From: Candidatus Multivoradales bacterium | GTDB taxonomy: Bacteria > Acidobacteriota > Thermoanaerobaculia > Multivoradales > Multivoraceae | Reading direction: 5' to 3' | NCBI GenBank assembly: GCA_965223325.1 | Contig: CBDCWI010000002.1 | Span: forward strand, 4,192,001-4,256,000 | Length of the DNA: 64,000 bases | In this document: in pieces, positions 4,701 through 62,782 of the stretch | Position numbering within the stretch: the first letter of the stretch is position 1 | Layout of the letters: each line of letters begins with the position of its first letter | Program-made: the position numbers and the translations under genes | The notes under the pieces: generated by a model | Seen by the model: only the letters and a program-made list of their open reading frames with translations | Told to the model about the DNA's origin: nothing | The model's database searches: none

Positions 4701-4843
4701 ATGAGAACCCCTCTTCGTGGCGTGCTTCAACGGTCATGGGCGGCACTCCTGGCGAGGTGAACTCGGTCTTCCAGACGCTCAGCTCGGATGGGTTCGAAAC
4801 CGGTGACCTGAGGCACTGGACCTCGGCCTTCAACGAGCGCTAG
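1799..4843 (+). CDS. Secreted CotH kinase-family protein with Fn3-associated/chitobiase-like domains and two lamin-tail domains
   Basis: Signal peptide; KHNFRL, LYLNGMYWGLYNIVE, GNHDW..QNWY and WDSE CotH motifs; YYTLDGSDP; two INEINYN/ITEIHYN...DWVEL LTD repeats; start uncertain (1739-1836). Confidence 0.85.
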   Translation: MSCQPLFPHSPLVQTRRVPRRIVRFVVLAAGLLGAGLLSPGLLWAQVDPPAFSVPGGHYDQPFDLSITGSGVVRFTTNASTPTASNGSDFATDLEISETTVVRAVAVGNGEESIVVTHTYIFPAAVVSQPDVIPSGYPALWAGYTADYGMDPEVTAVDTERVEAALRALPSVSLVTDIEHLFDDETGIYTNSTQSGVLWERPVSLELLFQDGTRHFQNAGVRMQGGGSRRPDRSPKHNFRLLFKGEYGPAKLEYPLFNSTAAGAKVTEKFDTLVLRAGYNNSWLHFNFASQHWGSEDQRLQAQYLRDEVVRRLQRDMGYQSAHGRYVHLYLNGMYWGLYNIVERPSAPFAADYFGGDKEDWDALNSGEVIDGDPAAWEATKAAADAGLADTTNYAALQEWIDIESFSDYIILNQWIGNHDWWWQNWYAARRRVPGAKWRFFNWDSEHTLEDPNEERSVTYRYWPAPTGIFERLRENPEFLMTFADRIYRHLWNEGTLESAAASAVYSEIASRIDLAIVAESARWGDYRRDLHPGEKSQLLYTRDEHWVVERDRILAEFFPHRTTALMAIYREQGLYPSLDGPVIEPWGGVVAAEQAVSLAHENGGGTLYYTLDGSDPRLAGGALAPGALEYQGAFTVGAGGRTVKARVLQGGEWSALAAAGFLPIAATSVVINEINYNGSELNDPGDWVELHNPGDQAVDLSGWSFNDTSGTFILPAGTVLSAGGYLVLAESSAEFASVHPGVPHLGNLLFGFSGAGERLQLRNGEGTVVDSVTYSDDVPWPTLPDGNGPTLELLDAASDNGVAESWFASLDPFGTPAAENSVTRFDPCEEPPPQLIITEIHYNSALAFEVGDWVEIANPTASVVDLSGWRFEDEDHVFEMAAGVSLAPGELLLLVEDNAAFEAGYGVLEQVGGVFGFGLSGGGERIALSSPTGCLVDAVEYDDALPWPLAADGGGASLELLDWYLPNENPSSWRASTVMGGTPGEVNSVFQTLSSDGFETGDLRHWTSAFNER

Positions 4844-4870
4844 TCGAGGAAGGCCCGCCTGGGCTCTAGC

Positions 4871-5992
4871 TCAGCCAGGAGTCAGGTCGTCGACGATCTT
4901 CTGCAAGGCCTGTTCGCGGCTCGACTCACCGTCGAGGTAGGCCGTCCAATGTTTCCGCACGACGGCTGCGGCCTCGCCCTCCCGTTCGTAGAGCGGAGCG
5001 ATGTCGCCACGGGTCGTATCGCCGTAGGCCTGGTGGTCAGGGTCATAGATGCGGCGCATCGTGTTCTCGGCCTGCACGAACATCACCAGATGCGGAACGT
5101 CATGCAGCCTGCGGTCGTTCTTCTCGACGCCGGCCTCTTCGAGCATCTGGCGGAGTTGGGTGAAGGCGTCTGCGTCGCCGTCCGAGGCGAGGTCGATTAC
5201 GTGGCAGACCTCGTGGAGCACGGTCTCTTCGAGGTCGGAGAACGCGTCGTTCTCGAGTAGCGCGGCGATCGACATCACGACCACCGGGCCGTCTCTGGTG
5301 CGGTAGGTGGTGGCGCCGGGCGGTTGGGTGTCAACGACCAGAGTCAGTGGGATCCTGACGCCTGGGTCTTCGATGCCCAGGGAGTCCAACATGTAGGCCA
5401 GCGCCGTGCGATGTTTTGGCATGAACTCCCGCTCCAGGCGGTCCCGCACTGCTTCGATGCGCGCCTTGCGTTCCGGCCAGTTGTTCTCGAGGACCTCAGG
5501 CCAGACTGCCTCCATGGCCGCAGCCATCGCCTTTCCCGGGCCCCTGATCGGAATCGTGCCGCCGGCGCGACTGGGAATCGATTCGGCCCGCTCGTTGAAC
5601 CAGAGCCCGAACTCTTGCGGTGTCAGAGAGAGCAATCCGGCAAGGTCGAACCGCCAGAAGCCTCCGAAGGTGCCAATTTCCTCCTGTACTGGCATCCAGG
5701 CGTCGACGATGGGGGCCAGTGCCGGATTGGGTTCCGCGATTCCGGCCGCCTGAGCACGAACCCGGAAGTAGAAGTCCGAAAAGGGCTCGACCCTGAGGTC
5801 GACGCGCGAGAGACTCTCTTCGAAGCCGTTCGGTGAGGTTGAGATCGTCGGGCTGGTCTCTTCGGGAGCGCTAGCCAGGCTCCCGCAGCCAGCGGAAAGC
5901 CCGCCGAGAGCGAGACTCGCGAGGAAGAGGGCGCTGGCGACATAGAGACTCGGTGCCGGTTTTCTGCAAGGAGGGGAACTGTCGCTTCGCAT
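4871..5992 (-). CDS. Hypothetical lipoprotein with HExxH motif (possible zinc metallopeptidase)
   Basis: Lipobox-like LSAGC after a hydrophobic stretch; VLHEVCH. Confidence 0.65.
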   Translation of the reverse strand: MRSDSSPPCRKPAPSLYVASALFLASLALGGLSAGCGSLASAPEETSPTISTSPNGFEESLSRVDLRVEPFSDFYFRVRAQAAGIAEPNPALAPIVDAWMPVQEEIGTFGGFWRFDLAGLLSLTPQEFGLWFNERAESIPSRAGGTIPIRGPGKAMAAAMEAVWPEVLENNWPERKARIEAVRDRLEREFMPKHRTALAYMLDSLGIEDPGVRIPLTLVVDTQPPGATTYRTRDGPVVVMSIAALLENDAFSDLEETVLHEVCHVIDLASDGDADAFTQLRQMLEEAGVEKNDRRLHDVPHLVMFVQAENTMRRIYDPDHQAYGDTTRGDIAPLYEREGEAAAVVRKHWTAYLDGESSREQALQKIVDDLTPG

Positions 5993-7835: not shown

Positions 7836-7857
7836 CTAGCCAGTGCCTTAGCGCGCC

Positions 7858-29272: not shown

Positions 29273-32140
29273 ATGTCCTTTGCTTTCCGCCCGTTCTCGC
29301 TCGCTTTTCTCATCGTCTTGCTTTCGGTGCCGGCCGCTCTTGCCTCGGTTCCCGCAGCTCCGGTGGTCCATCAGCTGACCCAGCCCGACGGGTCAACGAT
29401 CTCGGTTCAGCAGGAAGGGTCGCGCCAACGGCACTGGTTTCGAACGGTCGATGGCTACGCCGTCGTCCAGGAGTCCGATGGCTGGTGGCACTACGCCGAC
29501 CGGTCGGCGGGAGGAAGTCTGGTGGCCTCGGGCCTGCGGGTTGGCGTTGACGACCTCACCGCCCGTCGCCAGATGGCGACGGGGCTCGCACCGCTCGCCG
29601 ACAACGGCGCACCGGCAGACCGCTACGTTCCCCGTCGAGTTTTGCCGCCTGGTCGCGCTGCTTCGGTCAACCAGCCGGTGCTGGTGATCGTCGCTTCGTT
29701 CAACGACATATCGACGACTTATAGCGATGCGTCCTTTGCCAGTCTGATCTTCGGTGCAACCGACAGTGTCAAGGACTACTACGACGAGGCCTCCTACGGC
29801 GACTTTGCCATCGTTCCGGCCGACGAAACCGAGGGAGTGGCAAACGATGGCGTCATCGCGGTGAGCCTGGGCATGGACCACCCCAATCCTGCCGGTGGCG
29901 ACTCCTCGGCGATTGTCGTTGCGGCCCTGGCAGCGGCGGACCCTTCGATCGACTACTCCGCCTACGACTCGAACGCCGACGGTGACATCTCGGTCGAAGA
30001 GCTGAGCATCATCATTATCACCGCCGGCTATGAAGCCTCCTACTCGGGCGCCAGCCCTAGCGTCTGGGGCCACAAGTCGGGTGTCAGCCCCCAGACTCTC
30101 GACGGAGTTGATTTGAGCCCCTACTGCATGTTCGGCGAGCGTCATGGTGGGCACCAGGCAACCATCGGGATCATGGTCCACGAACTCGGTCATTTGATGC
30201 TCGGACTACCCGACCTCTACGACATCTCGGCCGCCAACGGTGACTCAGAAGGGGTTGGTAATTGGGGTGTGATGGGCGGAGGCAGCTGGCTCGGCGACAG
30301 CGAGAGTGGTGACACGCCGAGTCACTTTCTTGGGTGGTCGAAGATCATGGTCGGGTTCGCCGAGGCGACCGATGTGGTCACGGGCGAGGACCTTGTGGTG
30401 GAGCCAAGCCATAGCACTGCATCGCTCAAGCGCATCTGGACCGACCCCTACAAGCTCTCGACCTACTTTCTTCTCGAAGCGCGCGATACGTTGGGCTTCG
30501 ACAGTGAGCTGCCGGGTAGCGGCCTCCTGATTACTCACATTGACAACGGTCAGACCGGCAACCAGGACGAGACCCACAAGCTGGTCGACATCGAAGCGGC
30601 GGACGGGCTGAACCACCTGGACGACGAAGTCAACCGAGGCGATGCGGGAGACCCCTTCCCCGGTACATCGAGCAACACGGTGTTCGACAATGCCAGCAGT
30701 CCGGACAGCAAGCGCTACGACGGGAGTGCCTCGGGAGTGACGGTCGACGACATCACGACCCTCGCCGCCGGAGTGATGAGCGTCGACGTCGCTTCCTCGG
30801 CGCTCGCCGGCGACCACATTCGCTACGACCAGGCCTACAGCGGCGCGGGTCGCGGCTGGGCCAGCAACGAATTATGGACCGCGGAGCGCTTCACCAACGA
30901 CACCGAAATGAACACCCTGGACGGGGTCGAAGTGCTCTTCTACGACTACAACGAAACCGGCTACACCATTGACCTCTACATCTATGAGTCGATCCCCGGG
31001 GGTTTGCCAACCAACCTGCTCTACAGCGAGGCCAACTTCACGATTGGAAGCGGAATCAGCCGCCTGATGCTCGCTACTCCGCAGGCCTTCCCGGCAGACA
31101 GCGATCTGGTCGTCGTACTCTCGGTCGAGGGTGATAACCCAGCGATCAACACCTGGGCGCGTCATGATGCGACGGGCGCCTCGTCCTCGGGACGGTCGTA
31201 CCACGATTCAAATGGCATCGGGACCTTCTCGAGCCTGGCGGCCCACGGAGATCTGCACCAGCGTGCACTGCTCAGTTCGACTGCCGAGGACGTTTTGACC
31301 GTCACCCTGGCCGGCAATGGCAGCGGCACCGTCACCAGTGACCCGGCCGGCATTGACTGCGGTGCGGACTGCAGCGAAGCCTACGATGCGCTCGAGAACG
31401 TCACCCTGACAGCGGTGGCAGGTGTCGGCTCCGCGTTTGCCGGCTGGACCGGCGATGCGCAGTGCGTGAGTGCGAACGCTGAGACGACGGTCAGCGTTGA
31501 CGGCTTCGTCGATTGCACCGCGACCTTCGTCCTCCAGCAGCGCACCCTTACGGTTGCAACATCTGGCGCCGGGAGCGGCTCCGTTACAAGCGACGCTCCA
31601 GGTATCGACTGTCCGGGAGACTGCAGCGAAGACTACGACTACAACACCGCTGTGACTCTCACGGCTGTCGCAGAGAGTGGCTCGATCGTGAGTGGTTGGA
31701 GCGGCGACTGTAGCGGCACCAACGCCGAAGTCCAGGTCACTCTCGATGAGGCCCGGTCCTGTTCAGTCGAGTTCGGAATCGCACCTGAGATGGCTTCGCT
31801 GTCGATCAATTTCAAGGGCGACGGCGGCGGCGAGGTCTTCAGTCTCGATGCCAACATCGACTGCGGGAACGCGTGCGTCGATGCGGCCGTGGTCAGTGGA
31901 TCAGAAGCCACCCTGGTTGCAAGTCCAGACCCGGGCTCGGTGTTCGTGGGGTGGTCCGGCGACTGTTCCGGAGCCGCGGCCGAAATCACGGTCACTGTCG
32001 CCGGGGAGATGACCTGTACTGCGGGCTTCTACGTTCCGGTGTTCGCTGATGGCCTCGAGGGCGGTGACCTCTGCGAGTGGTCGGGTGCGGTGGGTGGAAT
32101 CTGCGACAGCCGCCGGGCTATGACTACGCCAGATCGCTGA
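29273..32140 (+). CDS. Secreted M6-family (immune inhibitor A-like) metalloprotease with three InlB-B-repeat-like Cys-containing domains
   Basis: Signal peptide, AVPA-like propeptide start with QPDG, HELGHLMLGLPDLYD, three GSGxVxS..GIDC...F.GW.GDC repeats. Confidence 0.9.
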   Translation: MSFAFRPFSLAFLIVLLSVPAALASVPAAPVVHQLTQPDGSTISVQQEGSRQRHWFRTVDGYAVVQESDGWWHYADRSAGGSLVASGLRVGVDDLTARRQMATGLAPLADNGAPADRYVPRRVLPPGRAASVNQPVLVIVASFNDISTTYSDASFASLIFGATDSVKDYYDEASYGDFAIVPADETEGVANDGVIAVSLGMDHPNPAGGDSSAIVVAALAAADPSIDYSAYDSNADGDISVEELSIIIITAGYEASYSGASPSVWGHKSGVSPQTLDGVDLSPYCMFGERHGGHQATIGIMVHELGHLMLGLPDLYDISAANGDSEGVGNWGVMGGGSWLGDSESGDTPSHFLGWSKIMVGFAEATDVVTGEDLVVEPSHSTASLKRIWTDPYKLSTYFLLEARDTLGFDSELPGSGLLITHIDNGQTGNQDETHKLVDIEAADGLNHLDDEVNRGDAGDPFPGTSSNTVFDNASSPDSKRYDGSASGVTVDDITTLAAGVMSVDVASSALAGDHIRYDQAYSGAGRGWASNELWTAERFTNDTEMNTLDGVEVLFYDYNETGYTIDLYIYESIPGGLPTNLLYSEANFTIGSGISRLMLATPQAFPADSDLVVVLSVEGDNPAINTWARHDATGASSSGRSYHDSNGIGTFSSLAAHGDLHQRALLSSTAEDVLTVTLAGNGSGTVTSDPAGIDCGADCSEAYDALENVTLTAVAGVGSAFAGWTGDAQCVSANAETTVSVDGFVDCTATFVLQQRTLTVATSGAGSGSVTSDAPGIDCPGDCSEDYDYNTAVTLTAVAESGSIVSGWSGDCSGTNAEVQVTLDEARSCSVEFGIAPEMASLSINFKGDGGGEVFSLDANIDCGNACVDAAVVSGSEATLVASPDPGSVFVGWSGDCSGAAAEITVTVAGEMTCTAGFYVPVFADGLEGGDLCEWSGAVGGICDSRRAMTTPDR

Positions 32141-32258
32141 CCGGTGGACGCGCTTGGCGGGATGCCTAACCCCCTGCCGCGACCAGTGGATCGGCCACTA
32201 GACTAGAAGGCGAAACACGGCGTGTCTCACCTGTGCGCTGGCCACCAGGAGCCCCATC

Positions 32259-34712: not shown

Positions 34713-34714
34713 CC

Positions 34715-34959: not shown

Positions 34960-35120
34960 CTATGTCCGGATCGGGTCTGCGGTCCAGAGGGCTGTGATCT
35001 CTAGACCCGATGAGTCGTCCCCTCGCGTTGCCACATGCCGTCTCCATCGCGTGATTTCACTTTCAAAGGGGCCGAGTCCTGGCGTGTGGCGACCAACCCT
35101 ACTCTCGTGAGGAGTGTCTC

Positions 35121-36112: not shown

Positions 36113-36156
36113 GACCCCTCCTCTGAGCTCTAGAAGAGCTCCCTCCCAAAGACTGC

Positions 36157-36192
36157 AAAGGCCAACCGGGCGTTGCCCTGGTTGGCCCTTTC
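36157..36192 (+). terminator. Stem-loop after the pilin gene
   Basis: GGCCAACCGGG / CCTGGTTGGCC 11-bp stem with one G-U pair, short T tail. Confidence 0.55.
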
Positions 36193-36236
36193 GCGTTGGG
36201 TCAGAAACCTTCCCTGTTCGACTTGCGGTTCAGGGC

Positions 36237-36273
36237 TTGCTAAAAATTTAGCGGTATGCTAAAAATTTAGCAA
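36237..36273 (+). promoter_or_regulatory. blaI-like promoter overlapped by two palindromic operators
   Basis: GCTAAAAATTTAGC at 36239-36252 and 36258-36271; TTGCTA-17bp-TAAAAA with extended TG. Confidence 0.85.
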
Positions 36274-36314
36274 CGGCGAGGTCCACAACGAAGAGTCAAG
36301 AGGAGAGAGGCCCG

Positions 36315-36701
36315 ATGACCCGAGACGACCGAAGGCTCAGTCGACGAGAGCGCGAGATCATGGACATCGTGTATCGCCACGGTCGGGTGACGGTCAACGA
36401 CGTGCTGGCCCATCTCGAAGACCCTCCCTCCTATTCGACGGTCCGCACGTTGCTTCGCATCCTCGAGCAGAAGGGCCACCTTCATCACGAGCAGGACGGG
36501 CCGCGCTACGCCTTTCAGCCCACCGTCCCGCGAGGTACGGCCAGTCGTAGTGCTCTACGCCATGTCATCGAGACGTTCTTCGAAGACTCGACGGAGAAGG
36601 CGGTGGCAGCGTTGCTCGACATGCGCTCCTCGTCGCTGTCCGAGGATGAGCTCGCGAGACTCCAGGAACTGATCGACCGAGCGCGCGAGGAGGAGAGATG
36701 A
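36315..36701 (+). CDS. BlaI/MecI/CopY family repressor
   Basis: LSRREREIMDI, YSTVRTLLRILEQKG, LSEDELARL. Confidence 0.93.
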   Translation: MTRDDRRLSRREREIMDIVYRHGRVTVNDVLAHLEDPPSYSTVRTLLRILEQKGHLHHEQDGPRYAFQPTVPRGTASRSALRHVIETFFEDSTEKAVAALLDMRSSSLSEDELARLQELIDRAREEER

Positions 36702-38923
36702 CTCGTCTGGAATGGTTCGCCTTCTCCGGAGCGGCGGACGGAATGGTGCTGGACGCAGCCCTCAAGGTGACCCTGCTCCTGGCGGCAGGCCTCTTTGCTG
36801 TTCGTTGGGCGCGCCGCGCGTCGGCGAGCTGGAGACTTTCGGTGCTCCTGATCGTTCTGATTGGGGCAGTCGCGGTGCCGATTCTCTCGGTGCTTCTTCC
36901 GAGTGTCGTGGTTCCCATTCTCCCCGCTCCACCAACTCGTGCCACCACAGCCACAGCTCCCCTGACTGCCCTCCCTGCCCGGCCGGCAGATGCCCCGCCG
37001 CGGGTAAGCAAAGTGACGCCGCCTCGAGCCGGAACCTCCTCGCCGGCCGTCTCCACCTCAGCGGCGGCAACCGACCGCGATCACTCGCGAACAGCGAGCC
37101 CGACCCTGGCGCCGGTCTTCCTCGCATCCTGGGCTCTAGGCCTTCTGTGGAGCCTCATCCGGCAGCGCAACGCTCATCGGAGGGTGCGTGCACTCGAGCG
37201 CTCGGCCCGGGTCGAGATCGAGCCTGCACTCATCGCGACCCTCGAGCTGACCGCAGCTCGGGTCGGTGTCCGACGAAGCGTGCAACTGCTTACCGCCCGC
37301 GAGCGCATCGGTCCAATGACCTGGGGGCATAGAGAACCCGTCATTCTGCTACCGGAAGACCATCGCGAGTGGAGTTGCGAGCGCCGCGCGATCGTGCTTC
37401 AGCACGAGCTCTTTCACATCAAGCGCTCCGACTGGCTGGTGCGAGTCGTTGCTCGAACCGCCGCTGCGATCTACTGGTTCCACCCGCTGGCCTGGATGGT
37501 TCTCGAGCGCATCGTCGAGGAGCAAGAGCACGCGTGCGACCGGGAGGTCCTGGCGCTGGGCACGCGCGCGACCCGCTACGCGCAGCATCTCCTGGCCCTG
37601 GCCCGCCGTTCGACCGACTCCGAATTGCCGAATATCCCCCTGCCGGCGTTGCCGATGGCGCGCCGCCGACTCCTGGAGGTCCGTCTGATGTCGATTCTCG
37701 ACCAAAAGCCCCGCTCGCGCACCCTGAGCGTCGCTCTCGCCATTCCCGCACTTTGCTTCTTCGCCCTGTTGGTGCCCGCCTTGGCTGCCGTCGAGCCCTG
37801 GGCCCAGGAGCCTCAGGAGCCCAAGACGCCGGCCGAGGCCCGCGCTCAGCTTCTCGAGGTGGTGCGAGATATCGAGCGCATCGAAGCACAGATCGAACCC
37901 CATGAAGCGCAACTCCGAGCACTCGAGGCGGAGCTGCGGCCGACGGAGTTGCACCTCGAGTCGATTGAGGACGCCCTGGCGCCCCACCGCGAGCAGCTCG
38001 AGGCCGTCGAAGCGGAGCTCGAGCCGTTCGAGGCAGAGCTGCGAGCGGTCGAGGCACGCCTCGAACCGCATGAAGACGCCCTGGCTGAAGCAGAGCGCGC
38101 CTTACGGCCCTTCGAAGCGCTCTTCGAGGCGATCGAGGCAGAACTTGCACCGTTCGAGAAAGAGCTCGATGCGCTCGAGCTCGACCTCGCACCGTTCGAG
38201 GCGCGCATCAACGAGATCGAGGCGCGTCTCGACAACATCGACTTCGAAGGAGATGACGCGCAGCGCGATCAGTTCGAGCAACAACTCGAGGCCGTGCACA
38301 GAGAGATGCAGCCGGTTCTCGCTCAGATGGAGGAGGTGCACGAGCAGATGAGGCCAGTTCAAGAGCGACTCGAAAGCATTCATCTCGAAATGGAGCCCGC
38401 GCATGCCGAGCTGGAGGAGGTCCATCTACGTCTGGAACCAGTTCTCAAGGAGATGGAGAAGATCCACATCGAGATGAAGCCGGTGTTCCGCAGGATGGAG
38501 TCTCTCCATCTGGAAGTCGAACCGGTGATCGCGCGGGTGGAGAATGCCCACCTTGACATGCAGCCGGTCCTGGAGCGCATCGAGGCGGTGCAGCGCGAGA
38601 TGCACGAGCCACTCGAAGAGATCGAACGCCTCCACGGGAAAGTAGAGAGCAGCAGCTCCGTCCTGGTCGATGACGTCTTGCGCCGGGAACTCGCGACGCT
38701 CCAACTCGACGAGCGTGCGATCGCAACGGTTCGGGGTTCGATCCTCGAGGTCGCGGGCCTCAACCTTCGCAACCGGCGCCTCCAGCTCGTTGGAGACTTC
38801 GAAGAGCTCAGAGAGCGCATTGAGCTGGCGCTCGAGGGCCTTGGCGTGGACGACCCGGGCCGTGACGCGCTCAGCCAGCAGGCGGCGCGGGCCCTCCTCG
38901 CTTTAGAGGTCGATCTCGAGTAG
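36698..38923 (+). CDS. BlaR1-like M56 metallopeptidase with 14-aa repeat coiled-coil C-terminal domain
   Basis: TM helices, GPMTWG..P.ILLP, QHELFHIKR.D, YWFHPL.W, EQEHACD, YAQHLL; ATGA overlap with blaI. Confidence 0.9.
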   Translation: MTRLEWFAFSGAADGMVLDAALKVTLLLAAGLFAVRWARRASASWRLSVLLIVLIGAVAVPILSVLLPSVVVPILPAPPTRATTATAPLTALPARPADAPPRVSKVTPPRAGTSSPAVSTSAAATDRDHSRTASPTLAPVFLASWALGLLWSLIRQRNAHRRVRALERSARVEIEPALIATLELTAARVGVRRSVQLLTARERIGPMTWGHREPVILLPEDHREWSCERRAIVLQHELFHIKRSDWLVRVVARTAAAIYWFHPLAWMVLERIVEEQEHACDREVLALGTRATRYAQHLLALARRSTDSELPNIPLPALPMARRRLLEVRLMSILDQKPRSRTLSVALAIPALCFFALLVPALAAVEPWAQEPQEPKTPAEARAQLLEVVRDIERIEAQIEPHEAQLRALEAELRPTELHLESIEDALAPHREQLEAVEAELEPFEAELRAVEARLEPHEDALAEAERALRPFEALFEAIEAELAPFEKELDALELDLAPFEARINEIEARLDNIDFEGDDAQRDQFEQQLEAVHREMQPVLAQMEEVHEQMRPVQERLESIHLEMEPAHAELEEVHLRLEPVLKEMEKIHIEMKPVFRRMESLHLEVEPVIARVENAHLDMQPVLERIEAVQREMHEPLEEIERLHGKVESSSSVLVDDVLRRELATLQLDERAIATVRGSILEVAGLNLRNRRLQLVGDFEELRERIELALEGLGVDDPGRDALSQQAARALLALEVDLE

Positions 38924-50594: not shown

Positions 50595-53500
50595 CTAGAA
50601 ACTGTATTTGAGGCCCAGCTGAACGATGCGACCGTCGCCGTTGGTTGCGGTGATCACGCCATAGTTCGAATCGCCGATGCGGTTGCCCGGCTGGGCATAG
50701 TTGATGCGGTTGAATACGTTGAACGCTTCGATGCGCAGTTGCAACTCATGCTGCCGGCGCAGCGGAATGTTCTTGAACAAAGAAAGGTCGACACGCTGGA
50801 AGTCGGGCCCGCGAATGGTGTTGCGACCGGCGTTGCCTCGACGGGTGGCGGTCTCAGCCAACGACAACGGGACAAAACAATCGGTGTTGAACCACTGCTC
50901 GACGGTTTCCGGCGCGCCCGAGTTCGGGTCGCAGACCTGGTCGGGACGTGACGTCAAGCCGCGGATGTCGTCGCCGCGAACCCGGATCGGGAAGGGATAC
51001 CCGGTCTGGTACTGCGCGATGCCATTGACCTGCCAGTTTCCGAAGACGTGGTGGAGCCAGCCGCCCTTGTTCTCGAGCGTTGGAAGCTTGGCCCCGAAGC
51101 TGAATACCAGGCGATGGCGAACGTCGAAGAGTGCGTCACCCTTCTCACGGGCAAGCGCTTCCTTGAACGAGTTGGGGTCGTTCTGGTCGACCGGGAGAAT
51201 CGGACGCTCCTCGCCACCGATGTTGAGACCTGAAACGTGATCGCGTGCGTGCCCCCAGGTGTAAGACGCCATGAAGTTGAGCCCGCGGGTTGGACGCATG
51301 CGAACGTTCGCCTGCAGCGCGTCATACCAGGACTTAGCGACCGTGAACGTGGGGCGCACCAGCGAGAACGCCGGGTAGAGGCGTGGCCCGAGGGTCGTCT
51401 GGCCGGGCTCGACGATGCGCGGGTTGACCTCCATGAAGATCGGTAGGTTCTCGCCACGCGAACCGACATAGCCCACCTCGACACCGATGTTCTGACCGAA
51501 CTGGCGCTGCGCCGTCAGGTTGAAGTGCTGGTACGAAGGGGTTTCAAACTCAGAACCCCAGCCGATGAAGATGATTCCGGGCGGGAAGAGCGTCGGCCCG
51601 CCCGCGACATTGGCCAGCGGGTCTTGCAGGCTGACCTCGGTGAAGGGTGCGTCGAGCTGCAGGATGGGGTTGAAGGGCGGCGCGAGCACAGCGTTCTGGA
51701 AGAAGTCGCCCTGACCTGGCAGGCTGTCATAAAAGATGCCCCAGCCGGCGCGTACGCTGGTCTTGCCGTCACCCCAGGGGTCCCACACCATCGCCAGGCG
51801 GGGCGCGATGTTGTCTTCGTCGGTGTCAATGGTGCCCGCCGGAACGCCTGCATCGCCTGGGTAGACCAGATTTGTCGGCGCGTCGGGGAAGCGGGTCGAC
51901 TGCTGCCCGGGGCGGAAGCTGTTGAGCGCGTCTCCCGAGTCTTCGAACGGCTCAGCCAATTCGTAACGCAGGCCGAGGTTGAACGTCAGGCGCGGCGAGA
52001 AGCGGAACTCGTCCTGGAAGTAGATGGCATACGAGACGCCGTCGCCTTCATTGATCGCGTCTGCACCGGGAACCGCGGTCCGGAACTGCGACGGCATACC
52101 GAGTAGAAAGTCCGCTGCGGCGTTGCCACTGAACCTGCCGTTGAAGGTGAAATCGCCGTTCGGCCGGTTGATGAAGCCGATGAACATCTTCTCTTTGCGG
52201 TAGTCGACGCCCATCTTCATCGCGTGGCGGCCACGCAGCAATGTGAAGTCGTTGGTGAACTGTGTGACCTCGTTGGTGCGCTTGACGAACGGTTGGTTCG
52301 GGTCGCCCATTGCCGGGTACCCCGAAATCGACATTTGCGCCAGGCCCGTTGCGATCGGGTTGATGTTGGGGATGTTGAGCCCGTACTCAGAGTTGGTGAT
52401 GCCGCTGGTCACGGTTGGGTCGGCGTCGATCTCATTGGATGAGAAGCGTGCCTGGTTGAAGGCGTTGTCGCCGATGGTTGCGGTGTGCGACAGCATGTAG
52501 TCGTTGAGCTCCGAAGCGGCCGTGGTTCCGATGGGTCGCACGGTTCGGGGCGTTAGCCGATCCGAGCTGCTCTCGAGCACCCGGAGGAGCAACGCCTGCC
52601 GCTCGGTCGCCTGGAAGTCGAAGCGCAACCCGAGCTGGTCACGATCGTCGGTGACGTCGGGCGAGGTGATGAAGCGGTTGGTGCCCGAGTTCGGAAGTGG
52701 CGTGAAGTCGTCGATGATGCGCTGTGCTGACGGATCGATGCGGTTGGCCGGGATGATGTTGCCGGGGAAGGGGTTCCCGGTCAGCGGATCGATGATCGGC
52801 GATGAGCTGGCAGAGAAGTCGCCGGCTCGCTCAGCTGCGGTCAAAACGGCGAAGTTCTGCGTCGTGCCGCGAGTGTTGCGAAAACCCTCGTAGTAGCCAA
52901 AGCCGAAGAGCCGCTCCGACATCAGTGGGCCGCCGACGCTGCCGCCGAACTGATCCTGCTTCAGCGTTGGCTTGGGCTGGTCATCGGGTGCGAAGGCGTT
53001 CTTTTTCTCGAACGAGTCGTCGCGATTGAACTCCCACAGGCTGCCGTGCCAGTCGTTGCCTCCCGACTTGGTGACTACGTTGACGATCGAGCCCGCGTTG
53101 CGGCCGAACTCGGCGCTGTAGGAGTGGGTGAGGATCTTGAACTCTTCGATCGCATCTGGCGGCGGTCTCAGAACGAAGCCGGTGTTGAAGGTGTCGTTAT
53201 TCGAAGCACCATCGAGCAGGAAGTTGTTCGACTGGCTGCGCACACCGTTGACTGCGAAGCCGGCTGTTACGGCGCCGAAACCGTTGATGCCCGCGTCGGC
53301 ATCACCGGAGGCACCGCCGAGACGCGCCGGCGGCTCGACGACGCCCGGGACCAGGGTGCCGAGCTGCGTGAAGTTGCGACCGTTGAGCGGGAGCTCGACG
53401 ATGGTCGTTTTGTCGACCACGACACCGAGGGTGGCGTTCGAAGTCTCGATGAGTGCCGCCTCGCCGGTGACGGTTACGACATCGTCGAAGTCACCGACAG

Positions 53501-53837
53501 CCAGGGTCATGGTGATGCGCGCGGTCTCGGCTGCCGTCACGCGCACCCCTTCGCGGGTGAGCTGGCTGAAGCCGTCGAGTGCGGCGGTGACGGTGTAGTC
53601 GCCCGGCGGCAGAAGGGGCGCGGCGAAATAGCCATCGTCGCCGGTCATCACGGTACGCGACCGACTGGTGGCAACATCGGTGATCGTGACGGACACGCCT
53701 GGGAGTGCACCGCCTTCGGCATTGGTCACGATGCCACTGAGCTGACCGGTTGCCTGGGCCAGCACGACCTGCGGGAGAGCGCCGACTGCGAGGAGAATGA
53801 CGAACGCTAGAAGTGCTTGACGTGTTGCGGTGATCAC
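50595..53837 (-). CDS. TonB-dependent receptor, Oar-like, with carboxypeptidase-regulatory-like N-domain
   Basis: Signal peptide, G.V..A.G.ALPG, LPLNGRNF.QL..L.PG, DAIEEF, YSAEFGR..G, C-terminal R.VQLGLKYSF; AAGGAGG RBS. Confidence 0.93.
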   Translation of the reverse strand: MITATRQALLAFVILLAVGALPQVVLAQATGQLSGIVTNAEGGALPGVSVTITDVATSRSRTVMTGDDGYFAAPLLPPGDYTVTAALDGFSQLTREGVRVTAAETARITMTLAVGDFDDVVTVTGEAALIETSNATLGVVVDKTTIVELPLNGRNFTQLGTLVPGVVEPPARLGGASGDADAGINGFGAVTAGFAVNGVRSQSNNFLLDGASNNDTFNTGFVLRPPPDAIEEFKILTHSYSAEFGRNAGSIVNVVTKSGGNDWHGSLWEFNRDDSFEKKNAFAPDDQPKPTLKQDQFGGSVGGPLMSERLFGFGYYEGFRNTRGTTQNFAVLTAAERAGDFSASSSPIIDPLTGNPFPGNIIPANRIDPSAQRIIDDFTPLPNSGTNRFITSPDVTDDRDQLGLRFDFQATERQALLLRVLESSSDRLTPRTVRPIGTTAASELNDYMLSHTATIGDNAFNQARFSSNEIDADPTVTSGITNSEYGLNIPNINPIATGLAQMSISGYPAMGDPNQPFVKRTNEVTQFTNDFTLLRGRHAMKMGVDYRKEKMFIGFINRPNGDFTFNGRFSGNAAADFLLGMPSQFRTAVPGADAINEGDGVSYAIYFQDEFRFSPRLTFNLGLRYELAEPFEDSGDALNSFRPGQQSTRFPDAPTNLVYPGDAGVPAGTIDTDEDNIAPRLAMVWDPWGDGKTSVRAGWGIFYDSLPGQGDFFQNAVLAPPFNPILQLDAPFTEVSLQDPLANVAGGPTLFPPGIIFIGWGSEFETPSYQHFNLTAQRQFGQNIGVEVGYVGSRGENLPIFMEVNPRIVEPGQTTLGPRLYPAFSLVRPTFTVAKSWYDALQANVRMRPTRGLNFMASYTWGHARDHVSGLNIGGEERPILPVDQNDPNSFKEALAREKGDALFDVRHRLVFSFGAKLPTLENKGGWLHHVFGNWQVNGIAQYQTGYPFPIRVRGDDIRGLTSRPDQVCDPNSGAPETVEQWFNTDCFVPLSLAETATRRGNAGRNTIRGPDFQRVDLSLFKNIPLRRQHELQLRIEAFNVFNRINYAQPGNRIGDSNYGVITATNGDGRIVQLGLKYSF

Positions 53838-59824: not shown

Positions 59825-61384
59825 TCAGTGGAGCGTCCAGTGGGGCGCTGGCGCGCCACTTTCGAAGTCGTCCTGGGAGATGAGCCCGGAGTCGACGGTG
59901 CGGAAGGTCCAGTGACCTCGCTCATCTCCCGGCTCGACGTCCTGGGTAGTGACGACCTCTTGCTCGTCGCTGGTCACGAGATATCCCCCGGTCCAGCGAT
60001 TGCGTAGGCGAACGGTGTGCTCCACCGCTGTGGGCTCGACGATCCACTGCTCGCTCCACCAGTCGAGCACCAGGTCGAAAACGCGCGCCGGGGCGCCGTC
60101 GTGTTCACCGGACGCGTTGAGGTAGTTGCCACCGCCCCAGGCGCAGCGTAGGCGCTGTCCACCCTGTGGCGCTGGCTCGAGAAACCAGCGCTGACTGAGC
60201 CATTCGGTGACCAACGGCTGCAGGGAGACGGGGGCGTTTACCTCGTCGCGGTTCTGATGGAGATACCTGCCCTGTGCGCGGTTCTCGATGCGCACTTCTC
60301 GCACGTCGGGCGGCACCTCAGTCTCCCCTCGGAAGGCCTCAACCAATCCCCAGTAGGCCGGCTTCTTCTCATACACAGTGGAGAAGGGAAGTGGGTAGTA
60401 GGGAGGGTCGGCGCCGGGTCGGTTGTTGAGCCAGGTGTACTTGTCGCTCAGACCCCAGGTCTGGAAGAGCTCTCCGCGGGTTGGATTGGCGAGAAAAATG
60501 TGGGCGATCTTCTCGTAGGCCAGTCGCTGGTCTTCGAACGCTCCCGGCGAGGAGTCCTTCAACCACACGTCGAGTTCCGTGATGTAGTTCGTAAGGCCCA
60601 GGGCCGAGACTTCCGCCATGCGCTCTCTTAGCTTGAAGCCAGGGTCTCGAAGAACTGTGTCGGGATCCGTGTGCAGCTGCCAGCCGACCCCGTCGATCTC
60701 ACCGCCGAGAGCCCGTACCTCGCGCAGCATGGCGTAGAGCGTCGCCCACTTTGCGGCGTTGCTCTCCATCCCGTAGTCGTTGTAGATCAGAACTGCCTCG
60801 GGCGCGGCGCGTCGCGCTGTCTGGAAGGCGTCGACCAGGAACTGCGCGCTCTGGGCGCGGTTCCAGAAGTTGTCGCGGTAGCCGCCCTGGTCATCGATGG
60901 CTTCGTTCACGACATCCCAGTAGGTGACATCGGCCCCGAATTCTTCGATCACTCGCTCGATGTGGGTGACCATCAACTCGCTAGCATCGAACTCCGCTTC
61001 GCCCTCGAGCACCCAGCTGGGAAGCGTCGAGTCAACGGCCCAGATGAGTGGATGACCGTGAAGCGGCCAGCTGTTCGCGTGCCCCAGTTGGAGAGCGCTC
61101 TGGGCGCGGCTCCAGTCCCAGGTGTCGACGTCGGGCCGTGTGTCCCACCAATACAGTCCCAGGGTGCCGACCGCCATCTGGTCTTCGAGAAGCGCAACGT
61201 TCTCCGGATCATGCAGGTCGAAGAGTGGCGCTCCAAACAGCACTCCGCGGTCGCTGGCCGCCTGGCGGAGTTCCTGTGCGCTTGCCCGATCGGGCGCGAG
61301 AAGACCCAGCAGGACGAGGCCAGCCGCCAGGGCGGAAAGTGAACGCACGGGTCGAACGCACTGCATGCGCCAGGCGCGGGTCAT
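59825..61384 (-). CDS. GH10 glycoside hydrolase (endo-xylanase-like) with C-terminal beta-trefoil carbohydrate-binding module
   Basis: HGHPLIW, WDVVNEA (acid/base), YNDY, IDGVGWQLH, ITELD (nucleophile), SQRW/EQW repeats; start uncertain. Confidence 0.88.
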   Translation of the reverse strand: MTRAWRMQCVRPVRSLSALAAGLVLLGLLAPDRASAQELRQAASDRGVLFGAPLFDLHDPENVALLEDQMAVGTLGLYWWDTRPDVDTWDWSRAQSALQLGHANSWPLHGHPLIWAVDSTLPSWVLEGEAEFDASELMVTHIERVIEEFGADVTYWDVVNEAIDDQGGYRDNFWNRAQSAQFLVDAFQTARRAAPEAVLIYNDYGMESNAAKWATLYAMLREVRALGGEIDGVGWQLHTDPDTVLRDPGFKLRERMAEVSALGLTNYITELDVWLKDSSPGAFEDQRLAYEKIAHIFLANPTRGELFQTWGLSDKYTWLNNRPGADPPYYPLPFSTVYEKKPAYWGLVEAFRGETEVPPDVREVRIENRAQGRYLHQNRDEVNAPVSLQPLVTEWLSQRWFLEPAPQGGQRLRCAWGGGNYLNASGEHDGAPARVFDLVLDWWSEQWIVEPTAVEHTVRLRNRWTGGYLVTSDEQEVVTTQDVEPGDERGHWTFRTVDSGLISQDDFESGAPAPHWTLH

Positions 61385-61507
61385 GCCTCTCCTACAAGAA
61401 GCGAGCCCCCTGGCTTTCGCTAGCTTGCCGAATCTCGAGTGATGATCGTGATACGATTGCATATTCCAATTTATCTTTTAGTGTACCATCTGCGCGAGGA
61501 GAGTCGG

Positions 61508-62782
61508 ATGTTTCGTATTACTACCAGGCCCCTATCCGGGTTCCTGTTCGGACTCATGTTGGCAGGAACAGCGGCTGCACAGGAGCGTCCGCTCCTCGAG
61601 ATTGACGACTTCGTATTCCGCGGTGCGTTCCGCGTGCCCGCCGGTGATTTCGGGGTTTCGTCGCTGAACTACTCAGAGGGACCTCTAGCGCTCTGCCGGG
61701 GAGGATCGTCGTTCTTCATCGTCGGGCATAGCCATCACCAGGCTCTCGCCGAGTTCCCACTTCCGGCGCTCGTCGATTCGTTCGCGCTCGATGATCTGTT
61801 GATGGCCGAAGAGCCTCTACAGGCTTTTGCCTCGGTGCTGGACCACGCGTCAGGGGGTAACCCCGACAACATCGATCGCATTGGTGGTCTCTGGTGTGAA
61901 GAAACCGGCGAGGGTCCAAAGCTCCTCGTCAACGGCTACGAGTACTACGACGCCGACGCCAATGTCACCGACTCCACGCTGCGTGTCGAGAATCCGCTTG
62001 ATCTATCCGGCTCGACGGTGAGCGGGTTCTTCGAGTTCGAAGACCCGGCAGGTCATCTCTCGGGCTGGATCTCGGAGATTCCTCCCGAGTGGCAGACCGC
62101 TCTCGGCGGCAGTCACATCACCGGTCACTCGAGCGGCATCCCGATCAACGGCCGCGCCAGCATCGGGCCTTCGGCGTTCGCCTTCGAGCTCGACGATCTC
62201 CTGGGTGTGACGGACCCGACGACGCCGATCGCCAGTGAAGCGCTCCTCGACTTCGCCCTCGCCGATCCCCTCCACGATGACCTGTCGAACGCGTCGCGGT
62301 CCAACCACCTCTGGACCCATCTTTCGCGCGCGGTCTATGGTTTCATTCCTCCGGGTACCCGCACCTACGTCACCCTCGGACACAGCGGTGGCCACGCTAG
62401 CGGGGTTTGCTACAAGTGTGAGCAGAGCAACGGCGTCGAGTGCGGCGGTTATTGCGCTCCGGACATCAACGACTATTCGCTCTACTACTGGCTATGGGAC
62501 GTAGAGGAGCTGGTTGCCGCAAGGGAAGGTCGCGTTTTACCGTCGGCGCTTCGGCCCTACGACTATGGTCCCTTCCCGGCCGCCTTCGAAACGCACGAGA
62601 TGGGAGGTGGCAGCTGGGACCCCTCCTCCGGGCTGCTCTACCTGACCCTGCAGCGCGCCGACACCGAACAGGGAGAGTACGCGACACCGCCGGTGGTGGT
62701 GGCCTACAGAATCGTCGGTGCGCACACCGATGCGATCTTCTCGGACGACTTCGAGAGCGGCAATGTAGATGTCTGGGGTTGA
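61508..62782 (+). CDS. Secreted hypothetical protein (possibly beta-propeller-like)
   Basis: GAGGAG RBS, signal peptide ..TAAA|QE, GAFRVP, GGGSWDP..GLLYL. Confidence 0.75.
   Translation: MFRITTRPLSGFLFGLMLAGTAAAQERPLLEIDDFVFRGAFRVPAGDFGVSSLNYSEGPLALCRGGSSFFIVGHSHHQALAEFPLPALVDSFALDDLLMAEEPLQAFASVLDHASGGNPDNIDRIGGLWCEETGEGPKLLVNGYEYYDADANVTDSTLRVENPLDLSGSTVSGFFEFEDPAGHLSGWISEIPPEWQTALGGSHITGHSSGIPINGRASIGPSAFAFELDDLLGVTDPTTPIASEALLDFALADPLHDDLSNASRSNHLWTHLSRAVYGFIPPGTRTYVTLGHSGGHASGVCYKCEQSNGVECGGYCAPDINDYSLYYWLWDVEELVAAREGRVLPSALRPYDYGPFPAAFETHEMGGGSWDPSSGLLYLTLQRADTEQGEYATPPVVVAYRIVGAHTDAIFSDDFESGNVDVWG

What the first reader, a model, noticed from the sequence alone, without database searches (positions are those of the whole stretch)
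4770..62782. Four unrelated secreted proteins share a C-terminal [ILV][FS]xD[GD][FL]ExG...W tail: candidate protein-sorting/anchoring system
Seen in sequence: CotH/LTD ends LSSDGFETGDLRHWTSAFNER (about 4778-4843); M6 protease has VFADGLEGGDLCEWSG (about 32038-32090); GH10 ends ISQDDFESGAPAPHWTLH (about 59825-59881); the hypothetical protein ends IFSDDFESGNVDVWG (about 62735-62782). All four have N-terminal Sec-type signal peptides, are dispersed on both strands and have unrelated catalytic domains. The lipoproteins and cytoplasmic proteins in the window lack the tail. It has no TM helix or basic cluster, unlike LPXTG, PEP-CTERM or GlyGly-CTERM. Inference: a short modular tag recognised by an outer-membrane secretion or anchoring machine, functionally analogous to the T9SS CTD, or a Ca-binding docking peptide. 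I recall similar IFxDGFE tails in Acidobacteriota and Xanthomonadales proteins, but I know of no assigned machinery.
Basis: partly seen in the sequence, partly recalled or inferred. Interest (0 to 1): 0.85.

Follow-up and report, generated by a model that had tools for sequence, protein, structure and literature searches.

The report
Orphan hairpin tag with split-domain partner
About ninety exported proteins of this bacterium end in the same 19-residue peptide, which looks like the missing first piece of a small secreted protein encoded elsewhere in the genome, so the tail is probably a plug that docks many enzymes into one common socket rather than a classical sorting signal.

Summary
All four tails sit where stated, and the beta-helix gene running off the window also ends in one. 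Genome-wide, 89 ORFs carry LFxD[GD]FESGxTxxWSxxxP-stop. Of 82 profile hits, 77 lie within 30 residues of a stop. A reversed-pattern control gave 1 hit against 51. Pfam, NCBIfam and the paper library hold nothing on the motif.

In other proteins and taxa the same motif is the first beta-hairpin of a polysaccharide-lyase-like jelly-roll domain, often at the extreme C-terminus. This genome has exactly one copy of that domain: a 209-residue protein made of a signal peptide plus the jelly roll lacking just that hairpin. Such hairpin-less proteins occur in 17 of 18 tail-rich relatives and in 1 of 18 tail-free ones. A related genome keeps the intact form.

A complex prediction places the tail between the acceptor's last strand and its AFVQDD strand (ipSAE 0.81, best control 0.01).

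My reading, at about 0.6, is a trans hairpin-complementation docking tag. What the complex then does is inferred, not shown. One homologue carries an SLH anchor domain, which hints at envelope anchoring. One tail-rich genome (G035) has no detectable acceptor.

The parts
4778..4843 (+). C-terminal tail (LSSDGFETGDLRHWTSAFNER-stop) of the CotH/lamin-tail-domain protein (CDS about 1799-4843)
   Evidence: tail profile 21.2 bits
32045..32140 (+). Tail motif VFADGLEGGDLCEWSG plus an 18-residue extension (AVGGICDSRRAMTTPDR-stop) at the end of the M6 metalloprotease (CDS 29273-32140). This is the variant form W-S-x-A-V-G-G-x-C, also seen in two other genes of the genome.
   Evidence: 19.5 bits, 34 aa from the stop
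59825..59881 (-). C-terminal tail (ISQDDFESGAPAPHWTLH-stop) of the GH10 xylanase-like protein (CDS about 59825-61384). It has one extra residue between G and W.
   Evidence: 18.0 bits
62735..62782 (+). C-terminal tail (IFSDDFESGNVDVWG-stop) of a 441-aa exported protein with no family (CDS about 61457-62782). This is the short form, ending two residues after W.
   Evidence: 23.9 bits
62796..64000 (+). 5' part of a right-handed beta-helix protein gene that runs off the window. Its tail (WSDGFESGDSSRWSSSVGA-stop) lies about 550-610 bases beyond the window end (G000:C2 up to 4256607, locus L071).

Best explanation
The tail is the orphaned first beta-hairpin of a polysaccharide-lyase-like jelly-roll domain. 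Strand 1 is LFxDGFE, the turn is SGD, and strand 2 is TxxWSxxV.

In some proteins and lineages the whole domain sits at the extreme C-terminus of secreted proteins, or stands alone. In this lineage the domain is split. About 80-90 exported proteins keep only the hairpin as a 19-residue C-terminal tag. The rest of the domain is encoded once, as a 209-aa protein made of a signal peptide plus the jelly roll, starting just after the point where the hairpin would end. That gene is at G000:C2:3491494-3492120, minus strand, about 700 kb from the window.

After export, the tail of each cargo is proposed to insert between the acceptor's last strand (FDDFVSFR) and its AFVQDD strand. This would complete the fold and tie the cargo non-covalently to the acceptor, which is donor-hairpin complementation.

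Shown here: the tag, its position, its identity with the cis hairpin, the single hairpin-less partner, and their co-occurrence. Predicted in silico: the binding. Inferred: the purpose. I favour docking of many enzymes and adhesins to one common envelope- or matrix-bound module, for two reasons. The fold is that of glycan-handling jelly rolls, and one homologue is fused to an SLH cell-envelope anchor. A role as a periplasmic escort is not excluded.
For: (1) Tag: 89 ORFs carry it. 77 of 82 profile hits lie within 30 aa of a stop. Carriers are unrelated secreted enzymes and adhesins.

(2) Same motif in cis: in the collection scan, 23 of 132 matches have no stop within 50 codons after the motif, in Chloroflexota-, Actinomycetota-, Armatimonadota-titled and other records. 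In relatives the complete domain lies 0-9 aa from the end of 575-1329-aa proteins. The G000 tail profile hits at 10-19 bits, 17-33 aa upstream of the point where the acceptor profile begins.

(3) Partner: a search with a cis domain found one G000 protein. jackhmmer and the A1 profile find only that one copy in G000. Its mature N-terminus, DSSLDVNGNAAMAGNFGLEV, aligns to the residues that follow the hairpin in intact forms.

(4) Intact relative: G193 encodes a signal peptide, then IFADGFESGDLSKWSRV, then the jelly roll, then SFRTLAP.

(5) Co-occurrence: I read signal-peptide plus hairpin-less forms in 17 of 18 relatives with >=10 pattern hits. The family was found in 1 of 18 relatives with zero hits. 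In a 251-genome phylum sample, all 5 tail-rich genomes have a small acceptor at E<=1e-40, and only 5 of the other 246 have any family hit. G194, G283, G285 and G286 (83, 60, 62 and 99 hits) each have one or two.

(6) Complex prediction: ipSAE 0.81 (runs 0.81, 0.83, 0.80), best of 3 controls 0.01. The runs agree in >=98% of contacts and partner pLDDT is >=71. The mark was reached by 116 of 157 solved complexes and 2 of 215 mismatched pairs; those counts are only rough here because I used my own alignments. Tail residues 21-25 pair with acceptor 201-205, and tail 35-38 with acceptor 47-51.

(7) Fold: the acceptor model has pLDDT 85.8. The best PDB matches are PL20, PL14 and PL7 jelly rolls of about 220-260 aa, against a mature acceptor of 192 aa.

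(8) Anchor hint: the G032 homologue carries an SLH domain, E 2.3e-11.
Against: G035 has 125 pattern hits, but no hairpin-less acceptor was found with either the protein or the profile. Only a weak cis copy turned up; the genome is 97% complete in 150 contigs.

G014 has an acceptor-like gene but no pattern hit; it is 79% complete.

The complex predictor may score two halves of a fold highly simply because intact jelly rolls are known. A pass shows compatibility, not binding in a cell.

The related genomes are kin and not independent. The acceptor family and the motif are parts of one domain, so some co-occurrence comes from cis copies.

The acceptor gene has no conserved neighbours, and one gene would have to serve about 90 cargoes.

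Some cargo families are usually periplasmic: Peripla_BP_6 and Tat-exported DUF1501. The site of action is therefore unknown.

There are no expression data.
Confidence: 0.6

Rival explanations
1. The tail is a classical sorting or secretion signal. An unidentified envelope machine recognises it, and perhaps cleaves it. That machine could be an outer-membrane translocon or a C25-type peptidase acting as a sortase, as PorU does for T9SS domains. On this reading the hairpin-less protein is unrelated to the tail's function.
For: The tail is strictly C-terminal on exported proteins. Peptidase_C25 occurs in 18 of 18 tail-rich relatives and in 0 of 10 genomes of the tail-free genus g11. Seven G000 carriers have a C25 domain directly before the tail.
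Against: C25 is also present in three tail-free genomes: G004, G031 and G034. The best-conserved C25 proteins, of about 850-950 aa, lack the tail even in tail-rich genomes. The tail has no TM helix and no basic cluster, and no curated signal model matches it. No gene family recurs next to tail genes, either in G000 or in genomes with few tails. This reading does not explain why the tail equals the hairpin that the acceptor lacks.
Confidence: 0.15
2. The binding is the same, but the purpose differs. The hairpin-less protein is a periplasmic escort or chaperone. It captures the tail of newly exported proteins and hands them to an export route such as T2SS or an Oar-like transporter. It is not a final anchor.
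For: The acceptor is soluble and has a type-I signal peptide. Carriers include Tat-exported and binding-protein-like families that must pass through or stay in the periplasm. A prophage-encoded 117-aa membrane protein also carries the tail. The complex prediction is.
Against: No export component co-occurs or lies nearby. The cis form of the domain stays attached at the C-terminus of large secreted proteins, which fits a permanent module better than a transient escort. One homologue is fused to SLH and two to FN3.
Confidence: 0.15
3. The tails are relics. Cis C-terminal jelly-roll domains were truncated by stop codons, and the leftover hairpins have no function.
For: Cis forms exist in relatives at the same C-terminal position.
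Against: F, D, F, E and W are invariant or nearly so across 61 tails. The same 18-19-residue length recurs in many genomes (104 of 132 matches have a stop within 30 codons, with the mode at 18). The tails sit on unrelated protein families. They co-occur with the hairpin-less partner. Relics would decay and vary in length.
Confidence: 0.04
4. The tail acts within its own protein, for example by capping or stabilising the preceding domain, or it mediates self-association of the carriers.
For: The tail follows the last folded domain with almost no linker.
Against: The same tail follows at least 20 different domain types. No common surface could receive it. The predicted docking site on the acceptor is specific against controls.
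Confidence: 0.04

Closest known systems
Donor-strand complementation in fibre subunits: chaperone-usher pili and TasA (both recalled); archaeal cannulae and AbpX jelly-roll proteins (bioRxiv 10.1101/2024.12.30.630787 and 10.64898/2026.01.04.697558, seen only as search listings)
   Same: An incomplete beta fold is completed by a strand from another polypeptide. The cannulae and AbpX cases also involve jelly-roll folds.
   Different: Those systems polymerise one kind of subunit, or a few. Here about 90 unrelated cargo proteins would each donate a two-stranded C-terminal hairpin to one dedicated, non-polymerising acceptor. The split is visible as intact, cis and trans forms in related genomes.
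Cohesin-dockerin docking of cellulosomal enzymes, with SLH-anchored scaffoldins (recalled)
   Same: A short C-terminal module on many secreted hydrolases plugs into a common receptor module. One acceptor homologue carries an SLH anchor.
   Different: Dockerin is a folded Ca-binding module of about 70 aa that binds the surface of an intact cohesin. Here the tag is 19 aa and is predicted to become part of the receptor's own fold. There is no Pfam dockerin or cohesin match.
T9SS C-terminal domain (TIGR04183 / PF18962) with the PorU C25 sortase
   Same: It is a C-terminal tag on diverse secreted proteins without a TM anchor. C25 peptidases are frequent in tail-rich genomes.
   Different: The CTD is a folded beta-sandwich of 70-100 aa read by a secretion machine. 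The tail is 19 aa, has no model match, and C25 does not track it cleanly.
Tripartite sorting signals: LPXTG, PEP-CTERM, GlyGly-CTERM, MYXO-CTERM (Haft preprint 10.1101/2023.06.07.544157 and mBio PMC11980579, seen as search listings and abstract starts only)
   Same: Dozens of copies per genome at the extreme C-terminus of exported proteins, with an all-or-none distribution between genomes.
   Different: The tail has no hydrophobic helix and no basic tail, no membrane sortase candidate was found, and no NCBIfam match exists.
Polysaccharide-lyase-type jelly rolls (PL20 glucuronan lyase 2zzj, PL14, PL7; Pfam PF14099)
   Same: The acceptor model has this fold (2zzj E 3.7e-9, TMq 0.64). There is weak sequence similarity: PF14099 hits 4 of 17 members, best E 6e-4, and 2zzj scores E 0.09.
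   Different: All sequence matches are weak (best E 6e-4). The acceptor lacks the first hairpin. The invariant columns of A1 (G31, E56, G182, G194, D199) include none of the His/Tyr/Gln/Arg residues I recall as catalytic in PL7-type lyases; I did not check this residue by residue.
   Same: The logic is the same: a C-terminal peptide equal to the first strand of a domain, with strand-less copies of that domain encoded separately.
   Different: The fold (FN3 versus jelly roll), the phylum and the motif all differ. Here a two-stranded hairpin is donated, and the partner is a single-copy soluble protein.

Membership tests
T9SS type A C-terminal domain (TIGR04183 / PF18962) | Folded C-terminal beta-sandwich of about 70-100 aa that matches the family model | tested here: not met
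   The conserved part is 19 aa. No NCBIfam or Pfam hit on five whole proteins or on six 45-aa tails at E<=10.
T9SS type A C-terminal domain (TIGR04183 / PF18962) | T9SS cargo and machinery present in the genome | tested here: inconclusive
   TIGR04183 found nothing in G000, but it rang in none of the 14 control genomes either. Machinery genes were not searched.
Tripartite sortase-type signals (LPXTG, PEP-CTERM, GlyGly-CTERM, MYXO-CTERM) | Signature motif followed by a hydrophobic helix and a basic cluster at the C-terminus | tested here: not met
   The tails end 1-8 residues after the W, are acidic, and have no hydrophobic stretch. No NCBIfam match.
Dockerin (type I/II) | Duplicated Ca-binding loop-helix module of about 60-70 aa that matches Pfam Dockerin_1 | tested here: not met
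   No Pfam match on the tails or the whole proteins. The length is 19 aa.
Donor-strand complementation systems | An acceptor fold that lacks a strand present in intact homologues | tested here: met
   The acceptor's mature N-terminus aligns just after the hairpin of intact (G193) and cis forms. This holds in 17 aligned homologues and 5 more.
Donor-strand complementation systems | The missing strand(s) are supplied by another polypeptide and pair with the edge strands | tested here: inconclusive
   The evidence is a prediction only: ipSAE 0.81 against a best control of 0.01. The tail strands pair with acceptor residues 201-205 and 47-51. No experiment has been done, and split folds can pass through likeness to intact folds.
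Polysacc_lyase (PF14099) / PL20-PL7 jelly-roll lyases | A sequence match above the curated cut-off | tested here: not met
   4 of 17 members hit, best E 6e-4. G000's own copy has no hit. The PDB profile search gave 2zzj at E 0.09.
Polysacc_lyase (PF14099) / PL20-PL7 jelly-roll lyases | Jelly-roll fold of the lyase type | tested here: met
   Foldseek top hits are 2zzj (E 3.7e-9), 5gmt, 1j1t and 1vav, with TMq 0.48-0.64, on a model with pLDDT 85.8.
Polysacc_lyase (PF14099) / PL20-PL7 jelly-roll lyases | Conserved catalytic residues and lyase activity | not tested
   I only noted that the invariant columns of A1 are G, E, G, G, D. No residue-level superposition was made.

The most novel reading that the evidence does not exclude
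This would be a natural split-protein plug-and-socket display system. A portable 19-residue hairpin tag lets about 90 different exported enzymes, proteases and giant adhesins (and even a prophage membrane protein) complete one shared, deliberately incomplete jelly-roll socket. The socket binds the cell envelope or the extracellular polysaccharide matrix. The cell would then hold its whole exoenzyme arsenal on one receptor. The system would have arisen by fission of a C-terminal glycan-binding module and spread across Thermoanaerobaculia-, Holophagae- and Polyangiaceae-titled lineages.
Probability: 0.35. Interest if true: 0.9.

Novelty: categorically new. Interest (0 to 1): 0.85.

Why it matters
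If the tail really docks by completing a partner's fold, this is a mode of protein sorting or display not among the described bacterial systems. It uses no sortase, no membrane anchor and no dedicated secretion domain. Instead, one domain is split between many cargoes and one receptor.

It would explain a conspicuous, unannotated motif on thousands of secreted hydrolases, proteases and adhesins in Acidobacteriota-type bacteria, which are abundant in soils and sediments. It would show how these organisms keep exoenzymes near the cell. It would also give a function to a family of 'hypothetical' proteins.

In practice it offers a small natural tag-and-receptor pair for protein display. It is directly testable with two recombinant proteins.

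Tried and rejected
- Typed-tail alignment.
- The search for homologous proteins restricted to the tail region found only the query itself, with 3 candidates. One search failed on a parameter bound.
- Neighbourhood enrichment in G000, +-4 genes around 82 carriers. It gave only large paralogous families (Ser/Thr kinases, PQQ-like propellers), the DUF1800 partners of DUF1501, and a 3-member TPR lipoprotein family. No machinery emerged.
- Neighbourhoods of tail genes in five genomes with few tails. Nothing was shared apart from two recurring families that I did not annotate.
- Peptidase_C25 as the partner. It is correlated but also present in three tail-free genomes, and the best-conserved C25 proteins lack the tail.
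- Pfam on the 291-aa C-terminal region of a cis protein. It gave no family for the domain, only the end of a preceding Laminin_G_3.
- TIGR04183 in G000. No hit, but the controls were silent, so it is uninformative.
- Acceptor gene context. The neighbours are not conserved.
- Sequencing runs. No RNA holder is listed, and read laying was not used.
- Paper searches. The strings DGFESG, GFESGD, DDFESG, DGFETG, FESGDTS, FESGDLS and GFESGN gave 0 relevant papers. 'Acidobacteri / C-terminal sorting / exosortase' returned only papers on known signals. X122 returned one unrelated redox-domain paper.
- A Pfam call with a mis-set reference failed and was repeated without that item.
- The scan's own notes contained nothing on this motif.


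Full report
**1. The observation**

- The CotH/LTD protein ends ...LSSDGFETGDLRHWTSAFNER-stop (4778-4843).
- The M6 protease carries VFADGLEGGDLCEWSG, 34 residues before its stop.
- GH10 ends ...ISQDDFESGAPAPHWTLH-stop (59825-59881, minus strand).
- A family-less 441-aa protein ends ...IFSDDFESGNVDVWG-stop (62735-62782).

Pfam and NCBIfam confirm the unrelated catalytic parts and give nothing for the tails.

**2. It is not chance**

The window lies in a 6.69-Mb, 64% GC genome of two contigs.
- A regex over all six-frame open segments found 61 matches, 52 within 60 residues of a stop.
- A profile built from those found 89 ORFs with the tail, 82 of them in a crude gene set of 4680.
- At 10 bits or more, 77 of 82 hits lie within 30 residues of the stop. 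In the gene set it is 72 of 76, where the last 30 residues are 6.8% of all residues.
- A degenerate DNA pattern gave 51 hits against 1 for its reversed control.

The consensus is L-F-x-D-[GD]-F-E-S-G-[DNST]-T-x-x-W-S-x-x-x-P-stop. F, D, F, E and W are invariant or nearly so in 61 aligned tails.

Carriers are typical exported proteins: GH9, GH10, peptidases M6, M10, M12, M14 and S8, trypsin, CotH, a nuclease, beta-helix proteins, DUF1501 with Tat leaders, adhesin-like DUF11/DUF7933 proteins, and seven proteins with a Peptidase_C25 domain. Five of those seven are 3800-4570 aa with 12-19 SdrD_B repeats. 28 of the 75 carriers outside the window have no Pfam family at the E<=1e-6 cut-off used.

My signal-peptide heuristic is too permissive to quantify enrichment well. 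It scored 72 of 89 carriers against 1973 of 4185 other genes. By eye nearly all long carriers have Sec, Tat or lipoprotein leaders.

**3. It is not catalogued**

Six 45-residue tails gave no Pfam or NCBIfam match at E<=10. Seven motif strings gave no relevant paper. The scan's own notes hold nothing on this motif.

**4. Distribution**

Among 40 relatives the pattern count is bimodal.
- 18 genomes, including G000, have 12-131 hits.
- 5 genomes have 2-5 hits.
- 18 genomes have none, including all 10 genomes of genus g11. Reversed-pattern controls gave 0-1.

In a 251-genome sample of the phylum (completeness >=90%), only 5 genomes have 10 or more hits. Four are in the window's order and one is in a sister order. 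213 genomes have none.

- 104 loci have a stop within 30 codons of the F, with the mode at 18. These come from records titled Thermoanaerobaculia, Holophagae, Acidobacteriota, Sulfomarinibacteraceae, 'Candidatus Multivoradales', Deltaproteobacteria and Polyangiaceae, plus one Crocinitomicaceae.
- 23 loci have no stop within 50 codons after the motif. Most come from Chloroflexota-, Actinomycetota-, Armatimonadota-, Bathyarchaeota- and Vicinamibacteria-titled records and from Acanthopleuribacter.

The scan is a truncated sample, not a census.

**5. What the motif is elsewhere**

In the non-terminal cases the motif is followed by ...G.L.V...AA..G..GL... and, about 180 residues later, by ...FDDF.S.R. 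One such cis domain from a relative (L228) matched one G000 protein when searched against the G000 six-frame translation.

That protein has 209 aa. It consists of a signal peptide (MTIALSGLLCLAGAAVA) followed directly by DSSLDVNGNAAMAGNFGLEV... and it ends ...GSHYFDDFVSFRTLSP-stop. It therefore has the whole domain except the hairpin. jackhmmer and a 17-sequence profile find only this one copy in G000.

Three other forms bear on this.
- Homologues in relatives have the same build, with a signal peptide followed at once by '[ST]L[DSA]V...AA..G'.
- G193, which has few tails, encodes the intact stand-alone form: signal peptide, IFADGFESGDLSKWSRV, jelly roll, SFRTLAP.
- Several genomes carry the complete domain, hairpin included, 0-9 residues from the C-terminus of 575-1329-aa proteins, sometimes in tandem. 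The profile trained only on G000 tails hits at 10-19 bits, 17-33 residues before the start of the acceptor-profile match.

Tail plus acceptor therefore equals one domain, split in the loop after the hairpin. The fused forms play the part of Rosetta-stone proteins.

**6. Co-occurrence**

Results with the protein query and then the profile, in the 41-genome set:

| Group (pattern hits) | Genomes | Acceptor family found | Notes |
|---|---|---|---|
| Tail-rich (>=10) | 18 | 17 | Not found in G035 |
| Few tails (2-5) | 5 | 5 | |
| No tails (0) | 18 | 1 | G014, 79% complete |

I read the N-termini and found a signal peptide plus a hairpin-less start in all 17 of those tail-rich genomes.

In the phylum sample, all 5 tail-rich genomes have a small acceptor ORF at E<=1e-40. 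Only 5 of the other 246 have any family hit. Of the two of those five whose N-termini I read, one is intact (G193) and one unclear (G153); a third, G039, has cis copies.

Four further tail-rich genomes each have one or two hairpin-less acceptors: G194, G283, G285 and G286, with 83, 60, 62 and 99 hits. G284, with 7 hits, has none.

Caveats: the genomes are kin and not independent. Cis copies also contribute both a motif and a domain hit.

**7. Fold and predicted docking**

The acceptor model is confident (pLDDT 85.8, pTM 0.82). It resembles polysaccharide-lyase jelly rolls. The best match is PL20 2zzj at E 3.7e-9 and TMq 0.64, followed by PL14, PL7, PL18 and PL36. Sequence similarity is weak. 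Homologues in the large protein collection are all 'hypothetical' and carry no Pfam domain.

The one complex job used the mature acceptor (alignment A1) and the last 40 residues of a carrier (alignment A2). Results:
- ipSAE was 0.81, 0.83 and 0.80 in three runs, against 0.01, 0.01 and 0.00 for three controls.
- At least 98% of contacts were shared between runs, and partner pLDDT was at least 71.
- The tool's mark was reached by 116 of 157 solved complexes and 2 of 215 mismatched pairs. Because I used my own alignments, those counts hold only roughly.

Tail strand 1 (T-I-F-T-D) pairs with the acceptor's last strand (F201-R205). Tail strand 2 (W-S-A-V) pairs with residues 47-51 (F-V-Q-D-D).

This is what hairpin complementation predicts. 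The halves of a known fold can, however, pass from likeness to intact structures. It shows compatibility, not binding.

**8. What the complex might do (inferred)**

Three points suggest a module that ties secreted proteins to a glycan or to the envelope.
- The fold is that of glycan-handling jelly rolls.
- The cis form sits permanently at the C-terminus of secreted proteins.
- The G032 homologue carries an SLH domain (E 2.3e-11), and those of G010 and G015 carry FN3 domains.

The split version would let about 90 proteins share one such module.

Some points cut against a purely extracellular role. Certain carriers belong to families that are usually periplasmic (Peripla_BP_6, Tat-exported DUF1501). 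In diderm bacteria SLH domains act inside the envelope; that last point is recalled, not tested. An escort function is therefore a live alternative.

**9. What speaks against the model**

- G035 has 125 pattern hits but no detectable hairpin-less acceptor.
- G014 shows the reverse case: an acceptor-like gene without pattern hits.
- The acceptor has no conserved gene neighbours.
- One acceptor gene would have to serve about 90 cargoes.
- There are no expression data; no RNA run is listed.
- Peptidase_C25 also correlates with the tail. It is in 18 of 18 tail-rich genomes and 3 of 18 tail-free ones, and it sits before the tail in seven carriers. A processing role for it is not excluded, even though the best-conserved C25 proteins lack the tail.

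**10. Comparison with what is known, and verdict**

The mechanism proposed is donor-strand complementation. It is known from pili and from TasA (both recalled). From the search listing, it is also known from the jelly-roll proteins of archaeal cannulae and AbpX. Its use as a proteome-wide tag with a dedicated single-copy socket is not described in anything I could search.

In function it is closest to dockerin-cohesin. It fails the defining features of T9SS CTDs, tripartite sortase signals and dockerins (see Membership tests).

An earlier AI note of this scan (e1-1187756) describes an analogous orphan FN3 strand in a CPR bacterium. I did not test that note. It is a parallel, not support.

Verdict by claim:

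| Claim | Judgement | Confidence |
|---|---|---|
| The observation | Confirmed | |
| The tag is real | Near certain | |
| Split-domain origin of the tag | Well supported | about 0.85 |
| Trans docking | Probable | about 0.6 |
| Anchoring role | A reasoned guess | |

Noticed in passing
G000:C1:12795-13145 (+) and G000:C2:46576-46926 (-), outside the window: Two near-identical 117-aa proteins have the best-scoring tails (about 31 bits) and an N-terminal hydrophobic segment. They lie in two copies of a repeat shared between the two contigs (BLAST pieces 93-99.9% identical) that looks prophage-like to me from unannotated ORFs: 1385-aa and ~1030-aa ORFs, an amidase-like ORF and an integrase-like ORF. 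A mobile element seems to use the host's tail.
   Followed up: partly
G000 loci L002, L013, L029, L033, L045 (3842-4570 aa) and L054, L057 (about 1360 aa): Seven tail carriers have a Peptidase_C25 (gingipain/PorU family) domain directly before the tail. Five of them are giants with 12-19 SdrD_B repeats. C25 is present in all 18 tail-rich relatives, but also in three tail-free ones.
   Followed up: partly
window 32093-32140 (+); also G000 ORFs g21062 and g22128: In three proteins the tail is followed by a conserved extension, W-S-x-A-V-G-G-x-C..., instead of ending after W-S-x-x-x-P. This is a second, longer tail form containing a Cys.
   Followed up: no
G000:C2:3491494-3491520 (-) and acceptor homologues (alignment A1): Seven of the 17 aligned acceptors, and the intact G193 form, end in a conserved motif of their own, S-F-R-T-[LM]-[AS]-(A)-P-stop, after the last strand. 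Others stop right after S-F-R. It may be a further recognition element.
   Followed up: no
L265 (G032:C1:1676179-1679754): The acceptor homologue of G032 is a 561-aa ORF with an SLH domain after the hairpin-less jelly roll. Those of G010 and G015 carry two FN3-like domains. Those of G013 and G014 have short extensions rich in D-G-D/N-G.
   Followed up: partly
G035 (same order, 97% complete): This genome has 125 tail-pattern hits but no hairpin-less acceptor, using either the protein or the profile. The only match is a weak cis copy at C1:121656-121910, whose own motif is at 121536.
   Followed up: partly
G000: g8445, g41885, g46404 (C1:892275-893576, C2:3612384-3613223, C2:2698713-2699711): A three-member family of ~280-320-aa exported proteins (one with a lipobox by my heuristic; TPR-like by eye, not annotated); each member lies within three genes of a tail-carrier gene, two of them directly adjacent.
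   Followed up: no
G000: DUF1501 carriers L012, L017, L025, L060: Four Tat-leader DUF1501 proteins carry the tail. Each sits next to a gene of one five-member paralogue family (539-732 aa), which I take to be the usual DUF1800 partner of DUF1501 (recalled pairing; not scanned against Pfam); four of its five members lie next to these carriers.
   Followed up: no
window 29273-38923: After the tailed M6 protease come a MacB/FtsX permease, two small exported proteins (one with a prepilin-type N-methylation motif) and a BlaI/BlaR1 pair. An Oar-like CarboxypepD_reg plus OMP_b-brl_4 protein lies at 50598-53837 (-). None of them tracks the tail.
   Followed up: partly
L248 (G028:C111), ORF 756-1406 just upstream of the acceptor gene: A 217-aa ORF directly upstream of the G028 acceptor has a degenerate tail-like motif near its end (...ADGFDSGGLGSW...). 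In G283 the acceptor at C31:10209-10826 is flanked by tail-pattern hits at 6767, 7719 and 11121.
   Followed up: no
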